Source of the DNA: Patescibacteria group bacterium
Lineage (GTDB): Bacteria > Patescibacteriota > Minisyncoccia > Phycocordibacterales > UBA1550
Length of the DNA: 64,000 bases
Assembly (NCBI GenBank): GCA_038063615.1
Contig: JBBTUT010000002.1
Span: forward strand, 48,746 to 112,745
Direction: 5' to 3'
In this document: one piece after another, positions 838-62,612 of the stretch
Layout of the letters: every line of letters begins with the position of its first letter
How positions within the stretch are numbered: position 1 is the first letter of the stretch
The notes under the pieces: model-generated
What the model saw: only the letters and a program-made list of their open reading frames with translations
Told to the model about the DNA's origin: nothing
Databases searched by the model: none
Made by a program: the position numbers and the translations under genes

Positions 838-1593
838 CTATGATACCAGATTTTTTAATTCATCAATAGCTGAAACAATGTCCTCACTCTCAAGGATTGC
901 CGACCCTGACACAAGGCGTGTCGCGCCGGCATCGACGAGTCGTTCTGCGGTTTCAAAATTTACCGAGCCGTCGATGCTGATTGGCATTTCGGGACGCAAT
1001 ACGCGAATCGCGCGGATATGTTCAAGCACGCGCTCGTCAAACACTTCACCCTGAAAACCGATCTTTGCGATTCCCATACATTGCACGAAATCGATGCGGT
1101 CGAGATAGAGTTCAAGTGCGGACACAGGCGTTGTAGTATTGATGGCAAGCCCGAGTTCAATCAAGCCCGTCGGCACCGACGCGCGAATGGCCTCAAAACT
1201 TGCCCCGTTAGAGGTAGGTCGTATACGACCGTCAGCTCTAACGGGGTCAATACTCTCCACATGCACAATAATGCGTCGCACTCCCGCACTCACCCACTTT
1301 GGCACAGCGAGCTCGGGGCTCTCGATCATCAAGTCCACCTCAAAATCAATGTCTTCCCACGCAGGCATCCCCTCTTCCTCGGCAACGATCGCATCAAAGT
1401 GTGGCTCGCGCCCAAGCGGATACGGCCAAGTGCGCTCCGGTACAAACTTGCCATCCATAATATCAAGCTGAACAAACGGAACGACCCCGACAAAAAGCCC
1501 CACCTTTTCAACAAGGTCTTCGTAACTCTTTGGCATTATCGCGGGGATGATTTCTGTCATAAAATTGCTTCGCAAACATTTAACAATTGACAT
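838..1593 (-). CDS. rpe: Ribulose-phosphate 3-epimerase, divergent CPR-type. The likely true start is the ATG at 1560 (MTEIIPAIMP).
   Basis: Motifs IIPAIMP, DIMDGKFVP, ISIDGSVN and LVDAGATRLVSGSAIL match the Rpe TIM barrel (IAPSIL, DVMDGHFVP, EVDGGV, AGAD..VAGSAIF). Confidence 0.7.
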   Translation of the reverse strand: MSIVKCLRSNFMTEIIPAIMPKSYEDLVEKVGLFVGVVPFVQLDIMDGKFVPERTWPYPLGREPHFDAIVAEEEGMPAWEDIDFEVDLMIESPELAVPKWVSAGVRRIIVHVESIDPVRADGRIRPTSNGASFEAIRASVPTGLIELGLAINTTTPVSALELYLDRIDFVQCMGIAKIGFQGEVFDERVLEHIRAIRVLRPEMPISIDGSVNFETAERLVDAGATRLVSGSAILESEDIVSAIDELKNLVS

Positions 1594-7648: not shown

Positions 7649-8530
7649 TTAATTCGCGTCCACAGCAATCCTTGCGAGCATCATCGCTCCCTCCTTCGAC
7701 CCTGCGACGGCGATGAATCGTTTATTGTGACAGAAGAGTGCATCAGGGACGCCGGAGATCTCGGCGAGCTCTCCGTCAAATTTGCCCGCCCATGCGATCG
7801 GCAGATCCTTTCTGTTTTTGAACGAATGCGCGTCGCTCCGCACCGCTTCGACTTTCCACATGTTGTCGTCGCCACGCGCGGGCTTCACTACGAACAACGG
7901 TTCCGGGCGCGCGCCGAGCGACTCGTACCACGGATAATGATGGTCGAGAACGATGATGCGCTTGTCGACGGCGCGCGCGTACGCTTCTTCAGCGCGGAGC
8001 TTCCCCTCTTCCTCACTGCGTGCGTGAATGATCTCGCGCGCAAGAATTTTCTTTGCGACCTCAAACGCTTCAAAAAAACCTTCTTCCTCGGTGCGCGCCT
8101 CATTCCACGCAGGGCGGAAAGCGCTCACGACATCGTGAAGAAAATACGGCACCACTTCGCCGTGTGCGGCGAATGTTTCAACGCCGTTGTCTCCCGCATC
8201 GACCGGCTGTGCTATCAGTCCATCGATCATTTTTGCCGCATATACAGAGCCCGTGATTTTCTCGCCGTAATGTTTCCATACGAGACCGAACGATGAGTAC
8301 GGAATATTGTTTTCCCTCACCCCCGCGCCACCTATTTGATGATGGTCAAATCGCCCGGCATCTGCATCATAGACTCCGCCCACATCGACGACAAAATCCC
8401 CCGTCGCCCAAACTTCGGGGTCGCGACTGCGCACGACCTCGACTGCTCCATCGTGCAAGAGCGCAAGTGTGGCGCAGGAAAAAACCTCGTCTGTGTGGAA
8501 GTTACCGCTGTGGGTTACGATCTTTTTCAT
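7649..8530 (-). CDS. MYG1/UPF0160-family metal-dependent hydrolase. The start is set at MKKIVTHSG (ATG at 8530); the ORF track start at 8563 runs into the repeat element.
   Basis: IVTHSGNFHTDEVFSCATL is the MYG1 hallmark. Confidence 0.8.
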   Translation of the reverse strand: MKKIVTHSGNFHTDEVFSCATLALLHDGAVEVVRSRDPEVWATGDFVVDVGGVYDADAGRFDHHQIGGAGVRENNIPYSSFGLVWKHYGEKITGSVYAAKMIDGLIAQPVDAGDNGVETFAAHGEVVPYFLHDVVSAFRPAWNEARTEEEGFFEAFEVAKKILAREIIHARSEEEGKLRAEEAYARAVDKRIIVLDHHYPWYESLGARPEPLFVVKPARGDDNMWKVEAVRSDAHSFKNRKDLPIAWAGKFDGELAEISGVPDALFCHNKRFIAVAGSKEGAMMLARIAVDAN

Positions 8531-8632
8531 CCCGTTAGAAGTTTTGTTGTTAAAATTAGTCATAGTGATTTATCCAGCCCTTTGATTATTTCCTTGTCTT
8601 CTGATTAAAGTACATGGAAACTTCTAACGGGA
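8531..8632. repeat. MITE-like cassette, copy 1. About 102 bp, bounded by inverted repeats cccgttagaagtt / aacttctaacggg, abutting the MYG1 start codon and overlapping the DedA stop.
   Basis: The left arm at 8531-8543 is immediately 3' of cat (the ATG on the minus strand). The right arm is at 8619-8632. The interior is AT-rich and carries a conserved aaggaaa-aataat core shared with copy 2. Confidence 0.5.
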
Positions 8633-9590: not shown

Positions 9591-10601
9591 CTATGCTTGG
9601 GGAATAAGATTTTTTATCTCACCATTGCTGAACGCAGTGACATTTTCGACCGTCGTGTCGAGGATGCGCTTGATCGCCTCTTCGGTATTGAATGCATTGT
9701 GCGGTGCGATGATCGCGCGCGGATGCTCGATCAAATAGTGATTGGCGAGTGTGGTTTTCAAGCTTGCTTCGTTCGGATGCGCGCTGAAAAGCAATCTCGT
9801 CTCGTCTTCGACAAAGCCCTCTTCTTCGAGCACATCGAGGCCGACGCCGAGGAGGATCCCCTCGCGGAGGCCTTTCACGAGCGCTTCCGTTTCTACGAGC
9901 GCGCCGCGTGCGGTATTGATGAGCACGCTCCCCCTTTTCATTTTTGCGATATTGTCGACATTCAAAATATGATGAGTTTCCTTCATATAAGGAAGATGCA
10001 CACTCACGATGTCGGACTGAGCGAGGAGGTCGTCGAACGATACATACGAAAAGCCGAGCTCTTGCGCGAGGTTGTCTTTCGGGTGCGCATCGAATGCGAT
10101 GACCTTCATATCAAATCCTTTCACCATTTTGATCATATGCACACCGATGCGCCCCGTGCCGAGAATGCCGATTGTCTTCCCCTTGAGGTCGAAACCGCGA
10201 AGCCCCGCCTGCGAAAAGAGCCCCTCTTCTTGAACTTTTTTCACGCACTCATACAGTTTGCGTGAGACCATGAGGAGGAGCCCGACCGCAAACTCGGCGA
10301 CAGTGTTTTCTCCGTAACCGGGAACGAACGAAACTGTGATCCCGCGCGCCTGCGTTTCAGTACGGTCGATGTGGTCGTACCCCGTCGAGCGCGCCGCGAT
10401 GTGTTTCAGGTTCGGGAACCGGTCGAGCTCCGTTTTTCCAACGGGAGAATTCACGAACACCGAGAGCACTTCCGCTTGCTCATCGCGCATATCCGGATAG
10501 TCGGTGGTGATGCCTTTCAAAAAAGTTATCTCGTGCCCAACAAGGCGCTCCTTCACATACCCCGCCTCCCAATCTTCATTGTAAAAATATATGATTTTCA
10601 T
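9591..10601 (-). CDS. D-isomer-specific 2-hydroxyacid dehydrogenase (glycerate/hydroxypyruvate reductase or D-lactate dehydrogenase-like)
   Basis: GILGTGRIGVHMIKMVKGFDMKVIAFD NAD-binding motif, and the catalytic region VSVHLPYMKETHHILN ... NTARGALVE. Confidence 0.8.
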   Translation of the reverse strand: MKIIYFYNEDWEAGYVKERLVGHEITFLKGITTDYPDMRDEQAEVLSVFVNSPVGKTELDRFPNLKHIAARSTGYDHIDRTETQARGITVSFVPGYGENTVAEFAVGLLLMVSRKLYECVKKVQEEGLFSQAGLRGFDLKGKTIGILGTGRIGVHMIKMVKGFDMKVIAFDAHPKDNLAQELGFSYVSFDDLLAQSDIVSVHLPYMKETHHILNVDNIAKMKRGSVLINTARGALVETEALVKGLREGILLGVGLDVLEEEGFVEDETRLLFSAHPNEASLKTTLANHYLIEHPRAIIAPHNAFNTEEAIKRILDTTVENVTAFSNGEIKNLIPQA

Positions 10602-10702
10602 CCCGTTAGAAGTTTAATTGATAAAATTTACTACAAAAATGATTTAACCTATTATTTGTTTCCTTACCATCTTTAAAAACTCTCGGGAAACTTCTAATGG
10701 GA
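10602..10702. repeat. MITE-like cassette, copy 2. About 101 bp, arms cccgttagaagttt / aaacttctaatggg, abutting the start codon of the 2-hydroxyacid dehydrogenase.
   Basis: Same arm sequence as copy 1 with one mismatch, and a similar interior (tgattta-cc...atttgtttcctt...ggaaacttcta). Confidence 0.5.
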
Positions 10703-37992: not shown

Positions 37993-38015
37993 AATATTGA
38001 AAAGTTTATCACTTT

Positions 38016-38789
38016 TTACATTTTTTTTACAAACAGGTAATCTTTTTCATCTATTTCATCAACAAAGGAATACCCTCGAGGTTCCAGAAAATCGGTAATC
38101 TTTTCCAATCTGTCAGAATTTTGAGACTCCAAAAGAATATGGGTGGGTAAATTTCTAGAAAAATCGAGTCCATGCAATATTTGAAGTTCATATCCCTCAA
38201 CATCCGCAACAAAAAGATCAATAGGCCTATTGCATGAAGTTATTGCTTGCCCGTCTATTATCGACTGAATTGTTTGCGCTGGTACAGTGATTTCTCTGCA
38301 ATCTATATTTTGTGCTTGCTCACTATCTTTAATCCACTCTGAACTATTCTCAATACTACTTTTTACGAAAGACATAAAATTACAATCAATAAAAGACACC
38401 GTGCTCTCACGGTAGTCAAATGAGACACAAGCACTTTGTATTACCACCGAATTTTTACGATTTCTTTGACACAATTTACTTATAGGTAAGGGTTCAACAA
38501 TAATCCCTTCCCACCCCATAAACTTTTCGAGATAATAGGTAGGATCAAAACCATAACCATCATTACCCCCGCATTGTACAAAAAACCCATTTTTCTTGGT
38601 AATATGTTTCAGTAGTGCCTCATGACCAGAGTACGGCTTTGAATATTTTTCTGAACCAAAAAACTCATACAAATCCCTCTTGTATGGCGCAATTTTACTT
38701 CTTATAAATGGGAAGATTTTACCGATATTCTTTCGCGGGTTTTGTATCAGTTTCTTTATTTTTTGAAGATTTGTCTCTTGATATGCCAT
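38016..38789 (-). CDS. FkbM-family methyltransferase
   Basis: FFVQCGGNDGYGFDPTYY and DLFVADVEGYELQIL. Confidence 0.55.
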   Translation of the reverse strand: MAYQETNLQKIKKLIQNPRKNIGKIFPFIRSKIAPYKRDLYEFFGSEKYSKPYSGHEALLKHITKKNGFFVQCGGNDGYGFDPTYYLEKFMGWEGIIVEPLPISKLCQRNRKNSVVIQSACVSFDYRESTVSFIDCNFMSFVKSSIENSSEWIKDSEQAQNIDCREITVPAQTIQSIIDGQAITSCNRPIDLFVADVEGYELQILHGLDFSRNLPTHILLESQNSDRLEKITDFLEPRGYSFVDEIDEKDYLFVKKM

Positions 38790-38829
38790 AGGTTTTTATA
38801 TTTTTTATTACAATACTTAAAATTAATCT

Positions 38830-39795: not shown

Positions 39796-40582
39796 GTTTT
39801 TGTAACGCTCGAGGATGATTACCTGGCGTGCTAATAAGTATTGATTTTGCGCGAGTAATGCGTTTTTCTGGTGGCGGTGGGGTTATATAATCTTTGCCAT
39901 ACATCAAAGATAAATATTCATGTACTTTTTTAGGTGCAGGATATAATTTACTCTCAAACTCAATATAATTAAGCGGGTAAATATAAGATTTTGGTATTGC
40001 ATAATAATACCAATTATCCTCAACAGTTTGGGCTACCTTGTCACTTTTAAATGGAGAAAGTAACAGCCAAATAAATTTGCACAATAGGTAGATAGAATAA
40101 TTAAAAAAGACATTTTCTCTGGAAATAACAGCTTTAGCGCGTGATCGACCAGTAAAGTACAGTAATCCCTTTCTCAAAAAGTCAGGCATCTTAGGATAAA
40201 TTACTGATGGGAAAATATCGATGTAGATTCCCTGATGATACGACTCTTCACCTGTTTCATTTTCGTGTAAAAATGTAGAATAACAATCACAGAGTTTTGC
40301 GAAGTGCTGCTTATATGCTTTGTCTGTTTTGGCGGTCTGCAGGAAAATATCTTGCGGGAGTTCTTTCTCTGCTATTTTTAAGAATTTTTTATAATCCTCT
40401 ACTGGCATTGACACATCAATGTCATCATCCCAAGGAATAAATCCTTTTTGTCGTACCGCACCAAGCAGGGTCCCAAAATCTATCCAAAAGACCAACCCAT
40501 GTTTGTCACAAATTTCTTTCAACGCATCCAGAAGATATATCTCTTTTTTCCTATACTCAATGTAGTCTTTTTCGCTTATCAT
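39788..40582 (-). CDS. LicD-family phosphotransferase (cholinephosphotransferase / fukutin-like)
   Basis: YLLDALKEICDKHGLVFWIDFGTLLGAVRQKGFIPWDDDIDVSM, the LicD nucleotidyltransferase-fold motif. Confidence 0.75.
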   Translation of the reverse strand: MISEKDYIEYRKKEIYLLDALKEICDKHGLVFWIDFGTLLGAVRQKGFIPWDDDIDVSMPVEDYKKFLKIAEKELPQDIFLQTAKTDKAYKQHFAKLCDCYSTFLHENETGEESYHQGIYIDIFPSVIYPKMPDFLRKGLLYFTGRSRAKAVISRENVFFNYSIYLLCKFIWLLLSPFKSDKVAQTVEDNWYYYAIPKSYIYPLNYIEFESKLYPAPKKVHEYLSLMYGKDYITPPPPEKRITRAKSILISTPGNHPRALQKHG

Positions 40583-40592
40583 ATATTTTATG

Positions 40593-41219
40593 TTATTTTT
40601 TTACCGCAATCACCCTTATGAATGTATAGTCAGTATCCCCAAATGGGGCAAAACCAGACTTTTCCTCTTTAAATACGACTTCAAATCCTGCCTTTATTAG
40701 TTTTTTGTGCAATCTGTCTATATCTATGAATCTACGAAAATGGCCTTCATAAATGTAGGCGTCTGGCTCACCATGAACAGGATCTCCTAATTTGTATATT
40801 TCGTTCTTCTTCCCCCTTGTTTCGATTAGTAGTTTACCATTGTTTTCTATGTGTTCATATGTCCACTTAATAACATCATCTTCCTCTTTTTCTGTAATAG
40901 AATGTAGCGTAAAACGAGAATAAACATTGTCAAAAAAGCCTATTTCGCCTAATTTTGTAAAATCAGCACACATAAATTTTAAATTGGGGATGTTATTTTT
41001 TTCTGCTAACACAGATATTTCATTTTCACATTGATCTACTGCTAAAACGTCAACGCCATGATCACTAAAAAGAAAACTATCTCTGCCATTTCCGCAACCA
41101 AGTTCTAATAAAGAATTTTTTTCTTTTATATAATTTTCTAATACGAACTGCGCGAATAAAGACGCTTGTAAAGGCGCATTCTTTATTTTATAATAATTTT
41201 CCCAATATTTTTTGTCCAT
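40593..41219 (-). CDS. Class I SAM-dependent methyltransferase
   Basis: LLELGCGNGRDSFLF, VLAVDQCENEI and MCADF. Confidence 0.7.
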   Translation of the reverse strand: MDKKYWENYYKIKNAPLQASLFAQFVLENYIKEKNSLLELGCGNGRDSFLFSDHGVDVLAVDQCENEISVLAEKNNIPNLKFMCADFTKLGEIGFFDNVYSRFTLHSITEKEEDDVIKWTYEHIENNGKLLIETRGKKNEIYKLGDPVHGEPDAYIYEGHFRRFIDIDRLHKKLIKAGFEVVFKEEKSGFAPFGDTDYTFIRVIAVKK

Positions 41220-41264
41220 GTTTTATATTATTACCTAATTAACTGCGTAAATTCTTGTATATTT

Positions 41265-42566
41265 TTAATTTTTTTGGGTGAAAATTTTAATTATACCATC
41301 TCTTGATCTTTTAAAAAGGAGCAAGCTGGCTACAACCACAAGATATGATATCATAGTCCCCCATGCAGATCCTTTGGGGCCAAACTGCGGAATCAGAATA
41401 ACATTAAGCAGAATATTTGCTGTAGCGCCAATAATGCTTGTGTATAAAAATATTCTGCTAAGATTTTCGACGATGAGGTAATGTTGCGCAAGAACTACTA
41501 GCGTTATAGCGATACTTGTCCATAGGTATATTCGAAGAATCGGAGATGATTCAGCAAAGGCTCCTCCAAAAACAATTTGGATAATTAATGGCGCAAAAAT
41601 AAACAGCGGAAGAGCAATTACGGCTGTTGCCACCACGGTAACCCATGATAGAGCTCGAAATCTTTTTGCATACAATGAAAAATTTGTTTTTTTTGCATTT
41701 ACTATTGCTGGAAACATTGAACTAATAATTAACCCAGGCAAGAATGCCCAAATTTGAGTAAGCTTAACAGCGGCGCCGTAAATTCCGACAGTTGCAGAAT
41801 CGAGATAGTGTAAAAGTAACACCTGATCCATTTTTGCATATATATATCCAGAAAATCCAGCTAGAAGTAACGGCCATGAGTCTCGCATTAGTTGTTTAAA
41901 TATATCTAAACGAAAATTCCACAAAAAAGGACTGTTGTTAAAACGAACAATATAAATATAAAGATACCATGCGACAGATATGATTGCTTCAATAAAAATT
42001 ATTACAGCAAAGTATATAATACCTTTGTTTAGAAACACGACAAGAATCTTAAGCGCAGGTATGAAAAAAGCTAGGAAAATGGAAATTTGGGAGCTAAATT
42101 TTGCTTTTACTTGAGCGTTGAAAAGAATTCCGACTGTGCCTATTGGGCTAATGATGAAAGCTAACGCGCAAATACCAATTAATATAGTTAAGATTGAATC
42201 ATTGCCTAAGAGAAGTGAGATCACAATTGACAATAAGAACGCGAGTATCCCAAAAATTAATTTTGAAAATATAGCAGTTCCAAGTAGCTCATTTTCTTTT
42301 TCTGGATTAGTAATAAGATCACGATATAAGATTTGATCAATACCCAATGATGCAAATACTGAAATAATGGCTACAAAACTTTGGGCATAATCAAGTTTCC
42401 CAAGGTTCTCTGGCCCAAGGTAGCGTGCAACAATTGCAACAGTAAGAAATGATGTAAAGAAAGTAGTAATACGCGCAGCAAACATCCACCCCATGTTTCT
42501 GAAGTACTTCTGAAAGCCAGCATGTGCCCATGTTTCTTTTATGTATGAGGCGGTAATTGGGGGCAT
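41265..42566 (-). CDS. Wzx-type polysaccharide flippase (MOP/PST family)
   Basis: 433 aa with about 12-14 TM segments and the typical PST N-terminus. Confidence 0.7.
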   Translation of the reverse strand: MPPITASYIKETWAHAGFQKYFRNMGWMFAARITTFFTSFLTVAIVARYLGPENLGKLDYAQSFVAIISVFASLGIDQILYRDLITNPEKENELLGTAIFSKLIFGILAFLLSIVISLLLGNDSILTILIGICALAFIISPIGTVGILFNAQVKAKFSSQISIFLAFFIPALKILVVFLNKGIIYFAVIIFIEAIISVAWYLYIYIVRFNNSPFLWNFRLDIFKQLMRDSWPLLLAGFSGYIYAKMDQVLLLHYLDSATVGIYGAAVKLTQIWAFLPGLIISSMFPAIVNAKKTNFSLYAKRFRALSWVTVVATAVIALPLFIFAPLIIQIVFGGAFAESSPILRIYLWTSIAITLVVLAQHYLIVENLSRIFLYTSIIGATANILLNVILIPQFGPKGSAWGTMISYLVVVASLLLFKRSRDGIIKIFTQKN

Positions 42567-42650
42567 AATATTGGGACTTTATTGGAGGATAATACCATTT
42601 TCCCTACTTATTTTCTATAGGGGATGGTATATTAAACAGGAAAGAATATC

Positions 42651-43421
42651 ATGAAATTTAGCATAATTACCCCAACATACAAGAGGAGAAAATTGCTTGA
42701 GCGAGCTGTTCAGTCGGTTCTTCGCCAGACCTATACCGAATGGGAAATGATCATTGTGAACGATTCTCCGGATGATTCTTCATACCAAGTGCTTCCTTTC
42801 TCCGTCTCTGACCCGCGAATTCATTACCTTGCGAATGATACAAATCGTGGTGTAAACTATTCTCGTAATCGGGCTCTCGACAGTATTTCCGAAGATTCAG
42901 ACTGGGTTGTTTTTTTGGATGATGACGACTACCTAGCGCCTGACACACTTACGACTTTTCACAAACTAGTCACTTCTCACCCAAAGGGAATGTGGTTCGT
43001 CACCAATCGCGCATACGCAGGAGGAAAGCTAGTCACAAAATACCCAAAGCTGGAAACATGGTATTCATATATCAAAGATGTTCTCATCTTAAAACGATGC
43101 AAAGGCGATGTAACACATTGTATAAAAGCAAACCTACTTACCAACATTAGATATTCAAAACACATCAAGCAAGCCGAGGAATGGTTATTCTACTACCAAA
43201 TTGCGCTTCGAGAAAAAATATTCTACCACGACCACAATAGTACTTTGACTGATGGGTATGATAAAGTTTCTGGGCTCAACTTCCGTAAACGCACTCGCGC
43301 CGAGCAATTCAAAACGCTCCGTGTCTTTATCCGCGAAGGGTCTGAACTTCACCTTCTCCATCACCCAACATTTCTCATTTATCTTTTCATGCGGTTCGTG
43401 CGACTGTGCCTCAAACCGTAG
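42651..43421 (+). CDS. Family-2 glycosyltransferase
   Basis: FSIITPTYKRRKLLERAVQSVLRQTY...IIVNDSPDD...VFLDDDD. Confidence 0.8.
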   Translation: MKFSIITPTYKRRKLLERAVQSVLRQTYTEWEMIIVNDSPDDSSYQVLPFSVSDPRIHYLANDTNRGVNYSRNRALDSISEDSDWVVFLDDDDYLAPDTLTTFHKLVTSHPKGMWFVTNRAYAGGKLVTKYPKLETWYSYIKDVLILKRCKGDVTHCIKANLLTNIRYSKHIKQAEEWLFYYQIALREKIFYHDHNSTLTDGYDKVSGLNFRKRTRAEQFKTLRVFIREGSELHLLHHPTFLIYLFMRFVRLCLKP

Positions 43422-47297: not shown

Positions 47298-47343
47298 CCC
47301 CGTAACCCCTATCTCCACAACTATCTCCCCAATCTTATCTTTT

Positions 47344-47389
47344 TCTCTTCAGCCTGTTTGATACTATAGTATCAAACAGGCTGAAGAGA
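47344..47389. repeat. Perfect 46 nt palindrome, family P2, 44 nt downstream of the PaaX-like gene 2 stop
   Basis: tctcttcagcctgtttgatacta|tagtatcaaacaggctgaagaga. Confidence 0.8.
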
Positions 47390-47432
47390 AATTCAACGAG
47401 ACCTCCTCGAAACGAGTGCTCCTGCGGATAAT

Positions 47433-48017
47433 TTAAAGCTTGAATGTCTTCTTAATCTGCTCCACGCCTTCAACATCATGGGCGACAACAATACGAATAT
47501 ATTTTCGAACATCAAAACATTCTCCAACAAAATCAATCTCCTTGGTGCAAGGAAACGGCGTAATAAACACTGACTTTTGATACTGCGCACAACCAAGCTT
47601 CTTGAGGGCGAGATTGACTGCTCGACGCGCCATCTTTTTTTCTTCAGGAACATCGAACATAATTAAACGCCATGTTCCATCCCATTTTTTTTGAGGAGAT
47701 ATTTTCATCAAATCAAGCTGATTTCGCTTTGCGCGATTATACCCTAAGTCGGTAAGCGAATAATAATCATCTCCATTTTTCGTACTCTTTTTTACAAACC
47801 CTCTTTTCTCAAGCCGTGAAAATGAGCGGTGAACCTCCCATCTATCTTGAGAGTTTCGCGGAAGAAAATATTTAAAAAGTTGCACGGCGTTGGGAGCAAC
47901 GATTGCTGTTGTTAAAAGCCCAACACCAAGCAAAATATTCAGAATCATCTCCTGTCGTTCTTGTTTTTTCAAAATCATCTCCTGCTTCTTTTGTTTTTCT
48001 TTTTCTTGTTTTTTCAT
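47433..48017 (-). CDS. PaaX-family-like transcriptional regulator, paralog 2, with a K/E/Q-rich N-terminal extension
   Basis: SFSRLEKRGFVKKSTKNGDDYYSLTDLG (PaaX_N-like wHTH) and KKWDGTWRLIMFDVPEEKKMARRAVNLALKKLGCAQYQKSVFITP (PaaX_C-like). Homologous to the ORF at 16392..16946. Confidence 0.5.
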   Translation of the reverse strand: MKKQEKEKQKKQEMILKKQERQEMILNILLGVGLLTTAIVAPNAVQLFKYFLPRNSQDRWEVHRSFSRLEKRGFVKKSTKNGDDYYSLTDLGYNRAKRNQLDLMKISPQKKWDGTWRLIMFDVPEEKKMARRAVNLALKKLGCAQYQKSVFITPFPCTKEIDFVGECFDVRKYIRIVVAHDVEGVEQIKKTFKL

Positions 48018-48026
48018 ATTAAATCA

Positions 48027-48068
48027 TTTACAGCCTGTTTGATACTATAGTATCAAACAGGCTGTAAA
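48027..48068. repeat. Perfect 42 nt palindrome, family P2, 10 nt upstream of the PaaX-like gene 2 start
   Basis: tttacagcctgtttgatacta|tagtatcaaacaggctgtaaa. The 34 nt core is identical to the 47344..47389 copy. Confidence 0.8.
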
Positions 48069-48178
48069 TGTAAACAGGGATGAACAGGGAATTAAGGAAC
48101 TTACAAAAATCTACTGATTCGTCTATTTCGCTGACAAACTCACAAAAGTGACCCGTACAATTAAGGTCGAGCAACTTC

Positions 48179-49564: not shown

Positions 49565-49723
49565 AAAGACCCGCTGTGTAAAAATTTTTGTAACGAAACT
49601 TTCAATTTTCTCGGCGAGGCGAAGAGAAAATTCTAAAGAATATCGGGATATTTTGAAGAATTTTATCGAAGCCATAGCCGAAAATTTAAAGTTGTAGTAA
49701 AAATTTTTACACAGCGGGTCTTT
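49565..49723. repeat. 25 bp perfect inverted repeats (aaagacccgctgtgtaaaaattttt / aaaaatttttacacagcgggtcttt) separated by 109 nt. The left arm abuts the LTD-gene start codon and the right arm overlaps the stop of the upstream ATPase gene.
   Basis: Read from the sequence. Confidence 0.7.
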
Positions 49724-53303: not shown

Positions 53304-53347
53304 GCCCATTATCTATTTCAAGTCATGACTTGAAATAGATAATGGGC
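53304..53347. repeat. Perfect 44 nt palindrome, family P1, third copy, far from the PaaX-like genes
   Basis: gcccattatctatttcaagtca|tgacttgaaatagataatgggc. Confidence 0.8.
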
Positions 53348-54078: not shown

Positions 54079-54759
54079 TTATTGAGAAAGTATTTCCTCC
54101 GCACGCTTAATGTCATACGGATACGCGATCGGGATCCAGAGTTCGCTCTCCACCACCTGCATCGGATGGTCGTGTATGTATCGTTCGATCATCTCCGTCA
54201 AATAGTACTCGCCATTTTTTGTATGTTTGGCTTCATAGTCAAAAATTTTAGGAGTGAGCACATATACGCCCGTTGCCACAAGATTTGATTTTGGATGCTC
54301 GGGCTTCTCTTCGATGTTTTGAATTGTGCCATCCTCGCGCATGACCACCACACCAAAAGCGCGCGGATCATCAACAAAAGAGACAAGGAGTGCCGAATCA
54401 TTCTTCATGCATTGAGCAATACTTTCTTTCCCATGAATGTCATCAGCGTACATAAGCAAAAACTTTTCTTCATTCTCGAGATGCAGGCGACAAAGCTTGA
54501 GTGCGTGCGCGGTGCCAAGCGGTTCATCCTGTTCGACATAGGTCACCCGCTTCCCCAAAAATGTATCACCCAAAAAATCGTGCATCATTTCGCTCTTGTA
54601 CCCCACGACGATCACCACTTCGTTGATGACCTCGGGCAACGCTTCCCAGATATGCTGGATGAGCGGTTTGCCGAGGACCTCGACGAGCGGTTTCGGCCGC
54701 TCAAGCGTAAGCGGATGGAGCCGTCTCCCCTCTCCTGCCGCGATGATAACTGCTTTCAT
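54079..54759 (-). CDS. Sugar-phosphate nucleotidyltransferase (NTP_transferase, e.g. glucose-1-phosphate thymidylyl/uridylyltransferase-like)
   Basis: MKAVIIAAGEGRRLHPLT..PKPLV is the G-x-G-T-R nucleotidyltransferase N-terminus. Confidence 0.8.
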   Translation of the reverse strand: MKAVIIAAGEGRRLHPLTLERPKPLVEVLGKPLIQHIWEALPEVINEVVIVVGYKSEMMHDFLGDTFLGKRVTYVEQDEPLGTAHALKLCRLHLENEEKFLLMYADDIHGKESIAQCMKNDSALLVSFVDDPRAFGVVVMREDGTIQNIEEKPEHPKSNLVATGVYVLTPKIFDYEAKHTKNGEYYLTEMIERYIHDHPMQVVESELWIPIAYPYDIKRAEEILSQ

Positions 54760-54925
54760 CCCGTTAGAGACAGGAGATTTGTCCCGTTAGAAGTCGCGAG
54801 GGTTCGCAGCGTGTAGTCACTTCTAACGGGATAAAATCTCCGTGCCTAATTACATTATACTGCCAATAATATTTATTCAACATATGTCTATATTACCAAA
54901 AAATAACATAAGGGTCTCTAACGGG
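54760..54925. repeat. Composite MITE-like cassette. An outer copy (arms cccgttagagac / gtctctaacggg) carries a nested 48 bp mini-copy (cccgttagaagt-gac...gtc-acttctaacggg at 54783..54830). It abuts the start codon of the NTP-transferase gene.
   Basis: All four arms were read from the sequence. The nested copy has extended flanking inverted repeats ggagattt / aaatctcc. Confidence 0.5.
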
Positions 54926-55001
54926 ATTCATACTGATTGCAATCATAGCAAACCCGCACGAACAAAAAAAGGGGCCGGTAGCAACCGACCCCTCGAATAA
55001 C

Positions 55002-55547: not shown

Positions 55548-55617
55548 CGATGGAGGCACTCGAACATGGGACCTCGTCGTTATCAGGGCGACGGGAGTGC
55601 CCGCATCCGTCGCCCGC
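55548..55617 (-). pseudogene. tRNA-Ile-like pseudo-copy D: D-arm 3' part, a 28 nt GC hairpin insert (GGCGACGGATGCGGGCACTCCCGTCGCC), anticodon loop CTGATAA, a degenerate T-arm and a 3' acceptor strand
   Basis: Aligned by eye to the intact tRNA-Ile. The T-stem strands are not complementary and there is no 5' acceptor strand. Confidence 0.4.
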
Positions 55618-55644
55618 TCTATCTAAATTAAGTTCATTGTGCGC

Positions 55645-55670
55645 GATCCAGGACTCGAACATGGGAAACT
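55645..55670 (-). pseudogene. Partial tRNA-Ile copy: T-arm plus 3' acceptor strand (CCCATGTTCGAGTCCTGGATCGCGCA), 17 nt after the intact gene
   Basis: Near-identical to the 3' 26 nt of the tRNA-Ile, with one T-stem mismatch. Confidence 0.5.
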
Positions 55671-55686
55671 TATCTGCTTTTCAAAG

Positions 55687-55760
55687 TGCGCGATCCAGGA
55701 CTCGAACCTGGGACCTCGTCATTATCAGTGACGCGCTCTAACCACCTGAGCTAATCGCGC
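55687..55760 (-). tRNA. tRNA-Ile (anticodon GAU), 74 nt, no encoded CCA
   Basis: GCGCGATTAGCTCAGGTGGTTAGAGCGCGTCACTGATAATGACGAGGTCCCAGGTTCGAGTCCTGGATCGCGCA. A 7 bp acceptor stem, GTGG D-loop, anticodon loop CTGATAA and TTCGAGT T-loop. Confidence 0.85.
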
Positions 55761-55785
55761 ACTTTGAAAACCAATTTTAAAAACC

Positions 55786-55855
55786 TCGTCGTGATTAGGG
55801 CGACGGGAGTGCCCGGCATCCGTCGCCCGCTCTAACCACCTGAGCTAATCGCGCT
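55786..55855 (-). pseudogene. tRNA-Ile-like pseudo-copy A: an intact 5' acceptor strand and D-arm, then a 29 nt GC hairpin insert and an altered anticodon region (CTAATCA), with no T-arm
   Basis: GCGCGATTAGCTCAGGTGGTTAGAGCG is identical to the intact gene's first 27 nt, followed by GGCGACGGATGCCGGGCACTCCCGTCGCC CTAATCA CGACGAGGT. Confidence 0.4.
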
Positions 55856-55917
55856 TTTCAGCACTTGGAGAACATACCATAAAACACCCCTTTACGCAAC
55901 GATTTCGTTAAAAAAGC

Positions 55918-56410: not shown

Positions 56411-57026
56411 GTTTGAAAAATTGCATGTATGTAATATCTAAAAATTATTTGTTGAGTATTCTTTCTTTTGTTCCGTTCTTCGCCTTGCTTTGCCGTCCGT
56501 TTTAAAAAAACAGGCGATTAAGCAAGGTCTTGCGTACCGGTAACCCTTCCGGTAAGGGAGCCCCTTTTTGAGATGGGAGGGCCTTCATCTTAATTCCTTG
56601 CGGAAAAAACCGACCAATTCAGCGTATCGCAACCACGAGGGCGTACGATACAACATTATATTTTGAATTGATTCACGACCAGCTTCCGCTAGCCGTGCCT
56701 TGTTACGACTTAGTCCTTGTTACCAAGCTTACCTTAGGTCCACGCGAGGTGGAACTTCGGGTACTCTCGGCTCCCCTGACTTGACGGGCGGTGAGTACAA
56801 GACTTGAGAACGTATTCACCGCAGTATAGCTGACCTGCGATTACTAGCGATTCCAACTTCATGAGGTCGAGTTTCAGCCCTCAATCCGAACTGGGGCCAC
56901 CTTTATTAGGATTAGCTCAGGGTTACCCCGTCGCGACCCGTTGTAGTGGCCATTGTATCAAGTGTGCAGCCCAGGGTATCAAAGGGACATGCTGACCTGG
57001 CGTCATCCTCTCCTTCCTCCCCCGCC

Positions 57027-57153
57027 TTTATTCGCGAAGCGAACAAAGGCAAGTCAAAAGTTAAAAGTCACAAGTCGAAAGTAGATGCATTTTGCATTCA
57101 CTTTTTACTTTACACTTTCTACTTTCCACTTGCCTTTGCGCTTCGTGCGCAAA
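57027..57153 (-). other. 16S insertion 1: an AT-rich extended hairpin of about 116 extra nt replacing the small loop before the GGAGGAAGG region (E. coli position about 1165)
   Basis: Sense strand reads TTTGCGCACGAAGCGCAAAGGCAAGTGGAAAGTAGAAAGTGTAAAGT...ACTTTCGACTTGTGACTTTTAACTTTTGACTTGCCTTTGTTCGCTTCGCGAATAAA, full of (G/C)AAAGT repeats. No ORF. Confidence 0.6.
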
Positions 57154-57388
57154 GGCGGGGGCAGTCTCGTCTGACACATATAACAGACAACGAGGGTTGC
57201 GTTCGTTGACCCACTTAAGGGGACAGTTCAAACCACGAACTGACGACGGCCATGCATCACCTGTCCATAAGTCCTTGCGGAGTTACCGAGTTTCCTCGGT
57301 CTTTCTTATGGATTTCTAACCCTGGTGAGGTTCTTCGTTTACCATCGAATTAAGCCACCTGATCCACCGCTTGTGCAAGTCCCCGTCT

Positions 57389-57420
<32 letters not shown>

Positions 57421-57918
57421 TCCCAGGCGGATCTCTTAACGCGTTAGCTTCGCCTCTCAGAGGGTCGATACTCCGAAAAGCTAGAGATCATCGTTTAGGG
57501 CGTAGACTACTGGGGTATCTAATCCCATTCGCTACCTACGCTTTCGTGTTTCAGTGTCAGAAATGTGCCAGTTTGCTGCCTTCGCATTTGGTGTTCCCCA
57601 TGATATCAACGGATTTCACCCCTACACCATGAGTTCCGCAAACCTCTCACACCCTCTAGTCGTGCCGTTTCAGCCGCAATTCTCCGGTTAAGCCGGAGGC
57701 TTTGACGAATGACTAACACGACCACCTACACACCCTTTACGCCCAATAATTCCGGATAACGCTTGGGGTACTCGTATTACCGCTGCTGCTGGCACGAGTT
57801 TAGCAACCCCTTATTCATGAGGTACTATCAAAAATTTCTCCCTCATAAAAGATCTTTACATCCCGAAAGACTTCATCGATCACGCGGCGTCGCTCCATCA
57901 GACTTTCGTCCATTGTGG

Positions 57919-57949
<31 letters not shown>

Positions 57950-58189
57950 ATGGTCCGTGTCTCAGTACCATCGGTGGGGGTCAGGCTCTCACCTCCCCTA
58001 AGCGTCATAGCCTTGGTAAGCCATTACCTTACCAACTAGCTGATACTCAATAAGCCAAGCCCCAAGCGATAAATCTTTACTCCGAAGAGACTATCAAGTA
58101 TTAGCCCGCCTTTCGGCGGGTTATTCCTGACTTGGGGGTTTGTACCTATTTATTACTACCTCGTTCGCAACTCCGAGCATCACGCTACG

Positions 58190-58292
58190 CGCGATACACG
58201 AGTCAAAAGTCGAAAGTCCTTAAAGTCCAAAGTAAATACGAATTGTATTCACTTTTGACTTTCGACTTTATAAACTTTTTGACTTGTGCATC
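58190..58292 (-). other. 16S insertion 2: an AT-rich hairpin expansion of helix 6 (V1 region), about 95 extra nt, with the same AAAGT/GACTTT repeat flavour
   Basis: Stem base CCGAGCATCAC ... GTGATGCTCGG. The interior reads CAAGTCAAAAAGTTTATAAAGTCGAAAGTCAAAAGTGAATACAATTCGTATTTACTTTGGACTTTAAGGACTTTCGACTTTTGACTCG. Confidence 0.6.
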
Positions 58293-58674
58293 ACACCCAA
58301 TGTGATGCTCGGCGTTCTACTTGCATGCCTTATCCACGCCGCCAGCGTTCATCCTGAGCTAGGATCAAACTCTCTTAAAAAGAGCATTTGAATTAACTCT
58401 CAAGAACGGAACAAAAGAAAAAATACTCTTTTGTATTCTTGTTATTTTACTCACAAGATCTGCCCAACTGCTAAAATCGAACAGATCCTTTTTTGGACTT
58501 GCAATCCAAACTTTAGATGTTTACATATATGCAATTGTCAAAGGTCGTTTTGCTTTCGGGCAAATACCCTGAAAGCAAAAGCGCTCATTCCTAAGCGCTT
58601 GAGCAGTATATACTTGTGTCGAAAAGAAGTCAAGCGCGAATTTTAGGCATATTTTATAGGCAAAATAAAGGTTT

Positions 58675-61645: not shown

Positions 61646-61736
61646 TTCCTAAAGTATACCACGTAAACAAAAAAACCTACCCCTTATTCTGTCATCCCAT
61701 TAGAGCTGGGACACGCTGCGTAAAACTCGTGACATC

Positions 61737-62612
61737 TTAACGGGACTGTCGCTTCTCAAGCACCACAAGGAGCGGGCTGGCGATGAATACTGATGAATAT
61801 GTACCGATGGCGATACCGATCCAGAGGATGAGAGAGAAGTCTTTTGTTGACGCGGGACCAAAGAAGAAGAGTGTTGCGAGAACGAGCATCACGGTGAGAG
61901 AGGTATTGATTGAGCGGGTGAATGTTTGGCGAAGTGACATGCCGACAGTTGTTGCAAAATCATTGGAAACGCGATTCTTCAGGTTCTCTCGGATACGGTC
62001 GAACACAACAATCGTGTCATGCACCGAAACGCCCATGATTGAGAGGAGGGCGACCACGAAAAGCGTGTCCACTTCTTTGCCCATCCAAACGAACACGCCT
62101 GCTGGAACAATGATGTCGTGGAGGAGAGTGACCGTTGTAATGGCGCCGTACTTCCATGAGGAGATCGGTTCGGAAACCTTGCGAAATGCGTATGCGACGA
62201 AGAGAACAATACCGAGAATCACCAGAACGATTGCCTTCCACGCATTATTGCGGAGCTCTTTGCCGACTGTTGGTCCGATAGAGTTCAAGCGTTTCTCTTC
62301 CATTTTGAGAGTCCCGTCGAGGCTAAGCGCGGCTACGAGCGCCTGACGGTCCGTCTCGGAAAGAGCTTTGGTCTTGAGCATCACCTCACTCTCCCCTGCC
62401 ATCTGAATGTGCGCGCCTTCAAACCCTGCTTTATCAAGAGAAGCTTTGAGTGTGTCACCGTCGGGGCGTTTCTCGTATGAAACTTCCATGATAGAACCCC
62501 CGGCGAAATCAATACTTGCATTGAAACCCTTGACCACCATCGCATAAAAAGAGAGGGCGATGGTGATTGCCGAGAGAGTAAAGAAAATTTTGCGATATTT
62601 TACGATGAACAT
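61737..62612 (-). CDS. secF: Protein translocase subunit SecF
   Basis: Six-TM SecF pattern, with FAGGSIMEV and a conserved C-terminal TM bundle. Confidence 0.9.
   Translation of the reverse strand: MFIVKYRKIFFTLSAITIALSFYAMVVKGFNASIDFAGGSIMEVSYEKRPDGDTLKASLDKAGFEGAHIQMAGESEVMLKTKALSETDRQALVAALSLDGTLKMEEKRLNSIGPTVGKELRNNAWKAIVLVILGIVLFVAYAFRKVSEPISSWKYGAITTVTLLHDIIVPAGVFVWMGKEVDTLFVVALLSIMGVSVHDTIVVFDRIRENLKNRVSNDFATTVGMSLRQTFTRSINTSLTVMLVLATLFFFGPASTKDFSLILWIGIAIGTYSSVFIASPLLVVLEKRQSR

What the first reader, a model, noticed from the sequence alone, without database searches (positions are those of the whole stretch)
54760..54925. Nested insertion: a 48 bp mini-copy of the CCCGTTAGAAG element sits inside a larger copy, at the start codon of an NTP-transferase gene
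The outer arms cccgttagagac (54760) and gtctctaacggg (54914) enclose an inner hairpin copy cccgttagaagtCgcgagggttcgcagcgtgtaGTCacttctaacggg (54783..54830) that has its own extended flanking inverted repeats (ggagattt / aaatctcc).

Element-into-element insertion is a hallmark of active or recently active transposition rather than a static regulatory site. A degenerate relative lies at 61697..61747 (cccattagag ... tcttaacggg) upstream of the 60638 gene.
Basis: seen in the sequence. Interest (0 to 1): 0.65.

Follow-up and report, generated by a model that had tools for sequence, protein, structure and literature searches.

The report
Start-codon-rebuilding miniature transposon, nested copy
The repeat is a real, nested pair of tiny non-coding transposable elements that inserted into the first codons of a sugar-nucleotide transferase gene and rebuilt its ATG. 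It belongs to an apparently undescribed element family that also occurs in several other bacterial phyla.

Summary
CCCGTTAGAR / YTCTAACGGG are the terminal inverted repeats of a MITE-like family: non-coding, 40-170 bp, with complementary end bases (C/G or T/A) and a 4-bp target-site duplication, usually TNNA.

All three large copies in the window (8530-8632, 10601-10702, 54759-54926) lie in the TGAA of a gene's (A/T)TGAA start. Empty sites in relatives confirm each one. The terminal A plus the duplicated TGAA rebuilds ATGAA.

The nested reading holds. A related Hainich aquifer lineage (L141) has the same outer element at the same gene without the 48-bp hairpin. Outer-only and composite forms both occur at start codons of other genes. 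However, the composite spreads as a unit, and the inner junction has no direct duplication, so nesting alone does not date activity. Other filled/empty differences between close relatives do indicate fairly recent mobility.

A 42-bp copy sits in frame inside the ribulose-phosphate 3-epimerase gene.

Hairpin copies occur in Patescibacteria, Omnitrophota, Planctomycetota, Desulfobacterota and Nitrospirota. No transposase, Rfam family or publication was found.

The parts
54759..54926 (-). Outer element (168 bp including the terminal T and A; the CCCG...CGGG core is 54760-54925). Written in the sense of the downstream gene.
   Evidence: Homologous along its length to elements in L050, L138, L140-L146. 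Absent from orthologous loci L133, L135 and L137.
54755..54758 (.). Gene-proximal copy of the 4-bp target-site duplication (TTCA on +, TGAA on -). With the element's terminal base at 54759 it forms the ATGAA start of the gene.
   Evidence: Empty sites read ...caatATGAAAGC.
54927..54930 (.). Distal copy of the target-site duplication (TTCA on +, TGAA on -).
54760..54771 (.). Outer terminal inverted repeat, gene-proximal arm (CCCGTTAGAGAC on +).
54914..54925 (.). Outer terminal inverted repeat, distal arm (GTCTCTAACGGG on +).
54782..54831 (.). Inner mini-element: T + 48-nt hairpin (12-nt arms, 24-nt loop) + A. Together with 4 adjacent bases it makes the 54-nt block missing from L141.
   Evidence: The same hairpin type occurs alone in L032, L069, L118 and L121.
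54773..54841 (.). Small palindrome of the outer element (GGAGATTT at 54773-54780, AAATCTCC at 54834-54841). The inner hairpin sits in its loop. Uninterrupted form in L141: GGAGATTTTATCTCC.
   Evidence: In the RNA fold it extends the inner stem.
54854..54859 (-). TATAAT -10-like hexamer inside the outer element, pointing at the gene. A TTGAAT lies 15 nt upstream (54880-54875). Its function is inferred, not shown.
   Evidence: A/T-rich -10-like boxes sit at the same place in L050 (TGATATAAT), L144 (TATAAT) and L140-L146. The promoter scan did not flag it, because there is no -35 at 16-18 nt.
54893..54931 (-). The displaced original start codon (ATG at 54931-54929) now opens a 12-codon reading frame, MNPVRDPYVIFW*, that runs into the element.
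   Evidence: Read. Upstream region 54932-54952 (tttgctatgattgcaatcagt, with TATGAT at 54947-54942) is homologous to the region directly upstream of ATG in the empty ortholog L137.
54079..54759 (-). NTP-transferase gene whose first codons were the insertion target.
   Evidence: Pfam PF00483, E=1.8e-40. Orthologs.
8530..8632 (-). Family copy B (101-nt core plus terminal T and A) at the start of the MYG1-family gene. TTCA duplication at 8526-8529 and 8633-8636. The upstream VTT-domain gene now stops at the TAG inside the arm.
   Evidence: Empty sites L148 and L149 read ...AAAAACTTGAAAAAGAT (a TTG start overlapping the VTT gene); L147 is filled.
10601..10702 (-). Family copy C (100-nt core plus terminal T and A) at the start of the 2-hydroxyacid dehydrogenase gene. 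TTCA duplication at 10597-10600 and 10703-10706.
   Evidence: Empty sites in L147 (97% identical protein), L148 and L149.
1204..1245 (-). Family copy A: 42-nt hairpin in frame inside the ribulose-phosphate 3-epimerase gene, encoding PVRADGRIRPTSNG.
   Evidence: Orthologs without it read SMKDFE. The same 42 nt plus 11 nt are identical in L138 and L123.
61696..61744 (.). Family copy E: degenerate 49-nt hairpin of the 48-nt type, between secF and the next gene. The secF stop codon (TAA, 61737-61739) lies in its arm.

Best explanation
The feature is a composite miniature inverted-repeat transposable element (MITE).

What defines the family:
- Terminal inverted repeats 5'-Y-CCCGTTAGAR..-3'.
- A stem of about 12-13 bp formed by the two ends.
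- No coding capacity.
- A 4-bp target-site duplication, usually TNNA.

What happened here:
- A roughly 114-bp outer element inserted into the TGAA of the ATGAAA start of the NTP-transferase gene.
- The element ends in A and the target TGAA is duplicated, so an intact ATGAA start is rebuilt at the gene-proximal end.
- The old start codon and its promoter are stranded 170 bp upstream, where they open a 12-codon frame.
- A 48-bp hairpin mini-element of the same superfamily lies in the loop of a small palindrome near the gene-proximal end of the outer element. This gives the '>> <<' arm pattern.

Shown: the terminal repeats, the duplications, the empty sites, the outer-only allele, and propagation of both forms.

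Inferred:
- Mobilisation in trans by a transposase that makes 4-bp staggered cuts. An IS1380/piggyBac-like DDE enzyme is the best guess.
- The outer element's internal -10-like box now transcribes the gene, giving an mRNA that begins with the inner hairpin.
- The hairpin arrived by transposition rather than by gene conversion.
For: 1. Motif enrichment and pairing in the window.

They share features the search pattern did not require:
- Position 10 pairs in 118 of 122; at least 2 further pairs in 93 of 118; the terminal flank pair is C/G in 85 and T/A in 29.
- Flanking 4-mers are identical in 68 of 124, against 9.5 expected; the maximum in 2000 shuffles is 19.
- The flank consensus is TNNA-Y|...|R-TNNA.

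3. Empty sites for four insertions:
- NTP-transferase: L133/L135/L137 empty; window, L132, L139 filled.
- GAPDH: window empty, L138 filled.
- Copy B: L148/L149 empty. This matched a prediction made beforehand (note; result).
- Copy C: L147 empty.
Every filled site reads (A/T)-TGAA-T[element]A-TGAA.

4. Nesting:
- L141 has the outer element only, at the same locus.
- L138, L142, L144/L145 and L146 have outer-only elements at other genes; L050 and L140 have composites at other genes.
- Near-identical 168-nt composites sit at two loci of one genome, L103/L105.

5. In-frame insertion polymorphism in rpe.

6. All 7 independent loci of the outer subfamily have the same orientation relative to the gene and a -10-like box at the same place.

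7. The region folds strongly: -49.6 kcal/mol, z = -6.2.
Against: - No autonomous element or transposase was found within about 4 kb of 120 loci, and no Pfam transposase or recombinase domain in 50 ORFs of the window. The mobilising enzyme is therefore unknown.
- Elements of 38-50 bp are very short for a double-stranded transposase complex.
- Arm positions 10-12 covary with no broken pair in 12 subfamilies. A purely sequence-specific DDE mechanism does not explain that.
- The inner hairpin has no direct 4-bp duplication in any of the 4 composite lineages. Its right flank (CAAA or TAAA) looks like an inverted copy of the left TTTA.
- The rpe copy also lacks a clean duplication.
- Promoter activity is untested, and the promoter scan did not call the TATAAT.
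- The invariant 9-nt core is partly a consequence of searching with it.
Confidence: 0.8

Rival explanations
1. The composite at this locus did not arise by transposition of the hairpin into the resident outer element. Either a composite copy elsewhere in the genome converted the resident outer-only copy by homologous recombination across about 100 bp of shared outer sequence, or the composite inserted as a unit and L141 later lost the hairpin by deletion.
For: - The inner junction (left TTTA, right CAAA) is the same in the window, L139 and the unrelated locus L140.
- There is no direct duplication at any inner junction.
- Composites demonstrably move as units (L103/L105, L140).
- The outer element at this locus predates the split of three lineages that are 86-92% identical.
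Against: - The 48-nt type is mobile on its own, with target duplications, elsewhere (L118 TCAA, L121 TTTA).
- The loop TTTA is the family's commonest target: 18 of 68.
- The inner unit is inverted in L050 relative to D, and L045 carries a different hairpin type at the equivalent place. Both suggest repeated independent events.
Confidence: 0.35
2. The elements move as single-stranded hairpins through a Y1/HUH-type enzyme (like IS200/IS605 derivatives, PATEs or REP/RAYT systems), not through a DDE transposase. The flanking TNNA would then be a cleavage or target tetranucleotide carried by the element rather than a duplication.
For: - The whole element folds into one hairpin whose base joins the two ends.
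- Stem positions 10-12 and the interior hairpins keep pairing through compensatory changes.
- The elements are tiny (38-68 nt).
- The target tetranucleotides resemble IS200/IS605 targets such as TTAC and TTGAT (from memory).
Against: - Empty sites contain one copy of the 4-mer and filled sites two.
- The 4-mer varies within a single subfamily (TGAA, TGGA, TGAG). An IS608-like mechanism would need co-varying internal guides for that.
- IS200/IS605 elements have no terminal inverted repeats and no duplication.
- No Y1 transposase was seen near any copy.
Confidence: 0.1
3. The arms flank an invertible promoter: a phase-variation switch flipped by a site-specific recombinase or by recombination between the repeats.
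For: - Inverted repeats bracket an A/T-rich segment with a TATAAT facing a glycan-related gene.
- The inner hairpin's loop is inverted between D and L050.
- Inversion of Correia elements has been reported (PMC10969869).
Against: - The orientation is the same in the window, L132/L139 and L141, and in all 7 independent loci of the subfamily.
- No recombinase gene among 50 window ORFs.
- The target duplications, empty sites and in-frame copies inside genes are not expected of an inverton.
- The 70-140 bp between the arms is short for inversion.
Confidence: 0.05
4. A vertically inherited cis-regulatory 5'-UTR RNA (attenuator or riboswitch-like) in which the repeated arms provide alternative pairings around the start codon.
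For: - The 3' arm abuts AUG, and the four arms allow alternative helices.
- Strong predicted folding.
- The architecture recurs upstream of many genes.
Against: - Presence/absence with target duplications at orthologous sites.
- The downstream genes are unrelated.
- Copies occur inside coding sequences: 71 of 123 lengths are divisible by 3 and about 30 lie inside long ORFs.
- No Rfam match.
- There is no conserved unpaired nucleotide core.
Confidence: 0.05

Closest known systems
Correia / NEMIS elements of Neisseria (MITEs)
   Same: Short non-coding elements with terminal inverted repeats, many copies just upstream of genes, sigma-70-like promoters, long stems in transcripts, and reported inversion and strain-to-strain insertion polymorphism (review PMC10969869).
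   Different: Per the review, Correia elements were first described as about 204 bp. From memory, they have about 26-bp repeats and duplicate TA. They are described from Neisseria and are not reported to sit inside start codons. The family here has a roughly 12-bp stem, a 4-bp TNNA duplication and forms as small as 38 bp. It occurs in at least six phyla, and one subfamily is always found at codons 1-2.
Rickettsia palindromic elements (RPEs)
   Same: Palindromic selfish elements tolerated as in-frame insertions in housekeeping protein genes (PMC10969869). Compare the 42-nt copy in rpe and about 30 in-ORF copies elsewhere.
   Different: RPEs are about 150 bp (per the review), were described from Rickettsia, and encode a conserved peptide. 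Here the insertions add 14-22 codons, the arms fix only PVR...SNG or PLE...LTG, and the same family also supplies intergenic and start-codon copies. Sequence similarity to RPEs was not tested.
piggyBac superfamily / IS1380 family DDE transposons
   Same: 4-bp target duplication of T..A type (TTAA in piggyBac) and terminal repeats that begin CCC. IS1380 transposases are the prokaryotic relatives used as outgroup (PMC10813416). IS1380 members carry strong outward promoters (PMC9330008). From memory, the piggyBac end CCCTAGAAAGATA resembles CCCGTTAGAAAGA.
   Different: No TTAA among the 68 perfect duplications. 29 of 122 copies end TCCC...GGGA rather than CCCC...GGGG. No IS1380- or piggyBac-like transposase was found near any copy. 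Membership is a lead only.
Pneumococcal BOX/RUP/SPRITE repeats
   Same: Small repeats found clustered and inserted into one another (PMC10969869), as with the '>> <<' composites here.
   Different: Different sequences and lineage. Here one particular nested arrangement became a propagating unit.
IS200/IS605-derived PATEs and REP/REPIN elements
   Same: Very small hairpin-forming repeats dispersed in intergenic DNA.
   Different: Those have no terminal inverted repeats in the transposon sense and no target duplication, and they depend on a Y1 transposase or RAYT. Here duplications are demonstrated and no such gene was seen.

Membership tests
Prokaryotic MITE (non-autonomous element with terminal inverted repeats) | Short, with no coding capacity of its own | tested here: met
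   Cores are 38-168 bp. The only ORFs are read-through of host frames.
Prokaryotic MITE (non-autonomous element with terminal inverted repeats) | Terminal inverted repeats | tested here: met
   12-16-nt perfect arms in the window. Position 10 paired in 118 of 122 and the terminal base pair present in 114 of 122.
Prokaryotic MITE (non-autonomous element with terminal inverted repeats) | Target-site duplication of fixed length | tested here: met
   Identical 4-mers in 68 of 124 against 9.5 expected. Confirmed against empty sites at four loci. Not met for the inner hairpin junction or for the rpe copy.
Prokaryotic MITE (non-autonomous element with terminal inverted repeats) | Multiple dispersed copies and insertion polymorphism between related genomes | tested here: met
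   Six copies in 64 kb. Near-identical copies at two loci of one genome (L103/L105). Filled/empty pairs.
Prokaryotic MITE (non-autonomous element with terminal inverted repeats) | A cognate autonomous IS with matching terminal repeats that supplies the transposase | tested here: inconclusive
   None found in the window or within about 4 kb of 120 loci. Whole genomes could not be searched.
IS1380 / piggyBac-derived element | 4-bp duplication and ends beginning CC(C) | tested here: met
   4-bp TNNA. Ends CCCC in 85 and TCCC in 29 of 122. Family features taken from PMC10813416.
IS1380 / piggyBac-derived element | TTAA target (piggyBac) | tested here: not met
   Duplications are TTTA, TAAA, TTGA, TTCA, TGAA, TCAA and others; no TTAA among 68.
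IS1380 / piggyBac-derived element | Mobilised by a DDE/DDD transposase of that family | not testable with these tools
   No candidate gene was linked to any copy. This needs whole-genome searches for long elements with these ends.
IS200/IS605 derivative (PATE) or REP/RAYT | No target duplication; insertion 3' of a fixed tetra- or pentanucleotide; Y1 transposase | tested here: not met
   The duplication is shown against empty sites. The 4-mer varies within a subfamily. No Y1 gene seen.
IS630/Tc1-mariner-derived MITE | TA target duplication | tested here: not met
   The duplication is 4 bp, TNNA.
Invertible promoter (inverton) | Both orientations present in a population; a dedicated recombinase | tested here: not met
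   Only one orientation in three lineages and seven loci. No recombinase domain in 50 window ORFs. Read-level data were not available.
Integron attC site | 5'-RYYYAAC ... GTTRRRY-3' polarity, with AAC/GTT on the inner side of the stem | tested here: not met
   Here GTT lies near the 5' outer end and AAC near the 3' outer end (CCCGTTAGA...TCTAACGGG), the opposite polarity.
Any Rfam RNA family | Covariance-model match | tested here: not met
   No hit on the elements at gathering threshold in the window or in 18 loci, nor at E<=10 in 54700-55000.

The most novel reading that the evidence does not exclude
These are members of a cross-phylum superfamily of hairpin-forming mini-transposons (bacteria, with one hit in an archaeal bin). 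One branch specifically targets positions +2 to +5 of open reading frames in genomes that use short-leader or leaderless mRNAs and lack Shine-Dalgarno pairing. It rebuilds the start codon with its own terminal base and delivers a portable promoter plus a 5'-hairpin leader. The strict maintenance of stem pairing means the elements move through a folded single-strand intermediate made by an enzyme class not yet linked to MITEs.
Probability: 0.15. Interest if true: 0.8.

Novelty: new variant of a known kind. Interest (0 to 1): 0.58.

Why it matters
Candidate Phyla Radiation (CPR) genomes are small and dense and are usually described as poor in mobile DNA. Here a 64-kb stretch carries six copies of one element family, and those copies have rewritten gene boundaries:
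- They replaced a TTG start with ATG.
- They separated overlapping genes.
- They supplied new stop codons to two upstream genes.
- They added 14 residues to a pentose-phosphate enzyme.
- They displaced native promoters.

The same terminal repeats occur in Omnitrophota, Planctomycetota, Desulfobacterota and Nitrospirota from groundwater and sediment. That makes the family a possible marker of DNA exchange among these communities.

An element whose end base plus target duplication rebuilds the start codon can persist where almost all DNA is coding. This kind of tolerated insertion appears not to have been described for MITEs.

Practically, gene callers will mis-set start sites at such loci. For example, the ORF listing extends the 7649-8530 gene to 8563.

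Tried and rejected
- Integron attC reading: rejected, because the polarity of the GTT/AAC motifs is reversed.
- Self-cleaving ribozyme or other structured RNA: no Rfam match. The three-way-junction subfamilies have 0-2 unpaired junction nucleotides and no conserved core.
- Inverton: orientation is constant and no recombinase is present.
- Operator sites of a transcription factor: rejected because of the in-frame copies and the empty sites.
- Autonomous partner searches:
  - Arm pairs 250-4000 bp apart in all loci turned out to be independent small elements flanking housekeeping genes such as ClpB, PGI, FBPase and a CCA/poly(A) polymerase-like gene.
  - All-against-all clustering of 692 ORFs from 117 loci gave only housekeeping families.
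  - ORFs next to solo arms are FtsZ, PrmC, dehydrogenases and the like.
- Literature search by the arm sequence returned only unrelated primers.
- 'MITE' plus 'candidate phyla radiation' returned nothing relevant.
- Viral contigs: only 7 hits, so phage carriage is not a major route.
- uORF-to-gene coupling: only copy C has the upstream frame ending 4 nt before the rebuilt ATG. In B, D and the L138 copy it ends far upstream, so coupling is not general.
Full report
OBSERVATION.
- Outer arms: CCCGTTAGAGAC (54760-54771) and GTCTCTAACGGG (54914-54925).
- Inner hairpin: 54783-54830, with 12-nt arms and a 24-nt loop.
- A further inverted repeat around the inner hairpin: GGAGATTT / AAATCTCC (54773-54780 / 54834-54841).
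- The ATG of a minus-strand NTP-transferase gene (54079-54759; PF00483) abuts the outer arm.
- A degenerate copy lies at 61696-61744.

The motif with at most one mismatch occurs 10 times against 1.9 expected; 0 of 100 shuffles reach that. All hits fall in pairs:
- A: 1204-1245.
- B: 8531-8631.
- C: 10602-10701.
- D: outer 54760-54925, with the inner hairpin.
- E: 61696-61744.

The window comes from a Parcubacteria-like (Yonathbacteria/Nomurabacteria-related) groundwater genome from the Hainich aquifer.

ANATOMY IN THE WINDOW. B, C and D share one layout on the minus (gene) strand...(A/T)-TGAA-T-CCCGTTAGA...[A/T-rich]...TCTAACGGG-A-TGAA-A.... The arms are therefore flanked by a complementary T/A pair and then by a direct TGAA repeat. 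The downstream gene's ATG is made of the element's last base plus the first two bases of the repeat.

From this I predicted (note) that the empty sites would read (A/T)TGAAA. For B, I predicted a TTG start overlapping the upstream gene.

THE FAMILY ELSEWHERE. By my own estimate, chance alone would give roughly 130 hits in 596 Gb. The hits are clearly not chance, because they share properties the pattern did not ask for:
- Position 10 pairs in 118 of 122.
- At least two more pairs follow in 93 of 118.
- The bases just outside the arms are complementary in 114 of 122 (C/G 85, T/A 29).
- The next four bases on each side are identical in 68 of 124, against 9.5 expected from shuffled pairing and a maximum of 19 in 2000 shuffles. 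They are TTTA 18, TAAA 10, TTGA 8, TTCA 7, TGAA 6, TCAA 4.
- The flank consensus is TNNA-Y|element|R-TNNA.

The hosts are many classes of Patescibacteria, plus Omnitrophota, Planctomycetota (Pirellulales, Phycisphaerae, Sedimentisphaerales), Desulfobacterota, Nitrospirota and WOR-3. There are single hits in Clostridia, Bdellovibrionales and a Methanosarcinales bin. Interiors are lineage-specific subfamilies; only the ends are shared. The invariance of the 9-nt core is partly imposed by the search.

EMPTY SITES. Four insertions were checked against orthologous loci.
1. NTP-transferase. Orthologs at about 80% identity (L133, L135, L137) read ...tattatagttttcaatATGAAAGC with no element. The window and L132/L139 read ...tatgattgcaatcagtA-TGAA-T[166]A-TGAA-AGC. 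The old upstream region is still recognisable to the left of the element.
2. GAPDH. The window is empty (...cgaatttacATGAAAAAAG). L138 is a related Hainich genome whose rpe gene is mostly 80-93% identical in DNA to the window's. It carries ...cgaatttacA-TGAA-T[114]A-TGAA-AAAG.
3. Copy B. L148 and L149 are empty and read ...CATCAAAAACT-TGAA-AAAGAT. That is a TTG start overlapping the end of the VTT-domain gene, as predicted. L147 is filled.
4. Copy C. L147, whose dehydrogenase is 97% identical, is empty...gttataatcA-TGAA-AATAATA.

These results establish a 4-bp duplication, element ends T...A (or C...G), and regeneration of the start codon. They also show gain or loss between close relatives.

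IS IT NESTED? Yes.
- A metagenome scan with the left subterminal sequence of D found L141. It comes from the same aquifer well and is 86-92% identical to the window in flanking DNA.
- L141 has the outer element at the same start codon but reads ...ACACGGAGATTTTATCTCCTGTCTCTAACGGGatg. The small palindrome GGAGAT-TTT-ATCTCC is uninterrupted.
- Window and L139 carry 54 extra bases there: T + 48-nt hairpin + A + CAAA.
- Outer-only relatives sit at the start codons of other genes: L138/L143, L142, L144/L145 and L146, with duplications TGAA, TGGA, TGAA and TGAG.
- Composites sit at others: L050, L140 and L045.
- One Saccharibacteria genome has near-identical 168-nt composites at two loci (L103/L105).
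- The 48-nt hairpin type also occurs alone with its own duplications (L118 TCAA, L121 TTTA).

Three points limit the inference of recent nested transposition.
- The outer insertion at this locus predates three lineages that are only 86-92% identical.
- Composites propagate as units.
- No inner junction has a direct 4-bp repeat. The right flank is CAAA or TAAA, an inverted rather than direct image of the left TTTA, and it is the same in the window and at the unrelated locus L140.

Gene conversion from another composite copy, or deletion in L141, therefore remains a live alternative for this particular locus. In favour of repeated events, the hairpin is inverted in L050 relative to D, and L045 carries a different hairpin type at the equivalent place.

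COPIES INSIDE GENES.
- 71 of 123 hairpin lengths are divisible by three, and about 30 lie inside long ORFs, nearly all with lengths divisible by three.
- In the window, copy A adds PVRADGRIRPTSNG to ribulose-phosphate 3-epimerase. Aligned orthologs without it read SMKDFE where the window reads SIDPVRADGRIRPTSNGASFE.
- At DNA level the empty site is AGT ATG AAA GAT TTT and the filled site is AGT ATT GAC [42 nt] GCA AGT TTT. There is no clean duplication.
- The 42 nt plus the following 11 nt are identical in the window, in L138 and in L123. The L138 rpe gene is mostly 80-93% identical in DNA to the window's, and the L123 gene mostly 60-80%; its protein P0010 is 70% identical.
- This implies recent transfer between orthologs, or homogenisation. 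It remains unexplained.

STRUCTURE.
- In 12 subfamilies of the 60-64-nt type, arm positions 10-12 switch between A-U and G-C with no broken pair, and an interior hairpin keeps pairing through compensatory changes.
- As RNA, the D leader folds into a long hairpin followed by a single-stranded UGUCUCUAACGGG-AUG. Its free energy is -49.6 kcal/mol, z = -6.2. The full element closes with the outer stem.
- Strict pairing is not required by a sequence-specific double-strand transposase. It suggests either a single-strand intermediate or selection at RNA level.

CONSEQUENCES FOR EXPRESSION (inferred).
- Most genes in this window have A/T-rich, Shine-Dalgarno-free upstream regions, often with a -10-like box a few bases before the ATG.
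- The 3' tail of the 16S rRNA reads GAAUCAAUUCAAAA instead of GGAUCACCUCCUUU.
- The insertions move the native promoter and start about 100-170 bp away, where the old ATG opens a short frame (12 codons in D).
- All seven independent loci of the outer subfamily have the same orientation and a -10-like box at the same place: TATAAT in D and L144, TGATATAAT in L050, and TTTAAT or GATAAT in others.
- The orientation bias is about 0.016 by my own calculation. It argues that the element supplies the promoter and leader.
- This is not shown, and the promoter scan did not flag the site.

WHO MOVES IT? Unknown.
- No transposase or recombinase domain was found in 50 window ORFs.
- None was found near 120 loci.
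- The 4-bp T..A duplication and the CCC ends match the signature of the piggyBac/IS1380 superfamily (PMC10813416). IS1380 members carry outward promoters (PMC9330008). TTAA is never the target here, so this link is only a lead.
- IS200/IS605 (no duplication) and IS630/Tc1 (TA duplication) do not fit.

COMPARISON AND NOVELTY. Each individual behaviour has a precedent among MITEs (review PMC10969869): promoters and stems in Correia elements, in-frame insertion of Rickettsia palindromic elements, and pneumococcal repeats inserted into one another. Four things appear not to be described, as far as sequence and keyword searches reach:
- This family itself.
- Its very small hairpin forms.
- Its spread across phyla, including the CPR.
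- A subfamily found only at codons 1-2, which rebuilds the start codon with its own end.

I file it as a new variant of a known kind.

LIMITS.
- Only one 64-kb window of the source genome was available.
- Promoter use, the enzyme and current activity are inferred.
- MAG taxonomy is taken from record titles.

Noticed in passing
window 56661-58380 (-), 3' end at 56661-56700: The 16S rRNA gene is 1720 nt against a 1533-nt model, so it carries insertions. Its 3' tail reads GAAUCAAUUCAAAA where the consensus is GGAUCACCUCCUUU: the CCUCC anti-Shine-Dalgarno sequence is absent. No ATCACCTCC lies nearby.
   Followed up: partly
window, upstream of about 60 genes (e.g. 49697-49723, 61646-61672, 5893-5920): Most genes lack a Shine-Dalgarno sequence. 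Many have a -10-like box (TATACT or TATAAT) only 6-12 nt before the ATG, which suggests leaderless or very short-leader mRNAs and fits the aberrant 16S tail. Two genes (15169, 55460) and two small ORFs near 56310 and 56120 nevertheless have strong GGAGG-type sites.
   Followed up: partly
window 1204-1256; L138 2363-2415; L123: The 42-nt in-frame element plus the next 11 nt of rpe are 100% identical in three orthologs whose surrounding coding DNA is mostly 80-93% (L138) and 60-80% (L123) identical to the window's. This points to recent transfer between orthologs, or to strong homogenisation of the element.
   Followed up: partly
window 55600-55870 (-): tRNA-Ile (GAT) at 55686-55760 is flanked by partial tRNA-like duplicates: gcgcgattagctcaggtggttagagcg... 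at about 55855-55800, and ttcgagtcctggatcgcgca at about 55660-55635.
   Followed up: no
window 16326-16369, 17010-17047, 53304-53347; 47342-47391, 48025-48070: Two families of perfect 38-50-bp palindromes: TGACTTGRAATAGATAA... and TAGTATCAAACAGGCTG.... Several lie directly upstream of PaaX_M (Cas2-like domain) genes at 16392-16946 and 47433-48017, so they may be operators.
   Followed up: no
window 49565-49589 and 49699-49723: A perfect 25-nt inverted repeat (AAAGACCCGCTGTGTAAAAATTTTT) brackets 109 nt at the boundary between a TrwB/TraG-like coupling-protein gene and an LTD/PKD-domain gene.
   Followed up: no
window 26485-43421: A long glycan-biosynthesis cluster on both strands: GDP-mannose dehydratase, epimerase, GT2/GT9/GT11 glycosyltransferases, LicD, a flippase and many methyltransferases. 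It contains no copy of the element. An AbiEii toxin-like gene lies at 21492-22133.
   Followed up: no
L094 2054-2098 and 2878-2924 (Methanosarcinales MAG); L053 3154-3454: Two hairpin copies lie within 1 kb of each other in a contig binned as an archaeon; this could be real or a binning error. Separately, a group I intron (Rfam RF00028) lies 1.3 kb from a hairpin copy in a Parcubacteria contig.
   Followed up: no
window 10601-10702: In copy C, the frame opened by the displaced ATG runs through the whole element (33 codons). It stops at the TAA inside the gene-proximal arm, 4 nt before the rebuilt ATG, which would allow termination-reinitiation coupling. This is not the case in B, D or the L138 copy.
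   Followed up: partly
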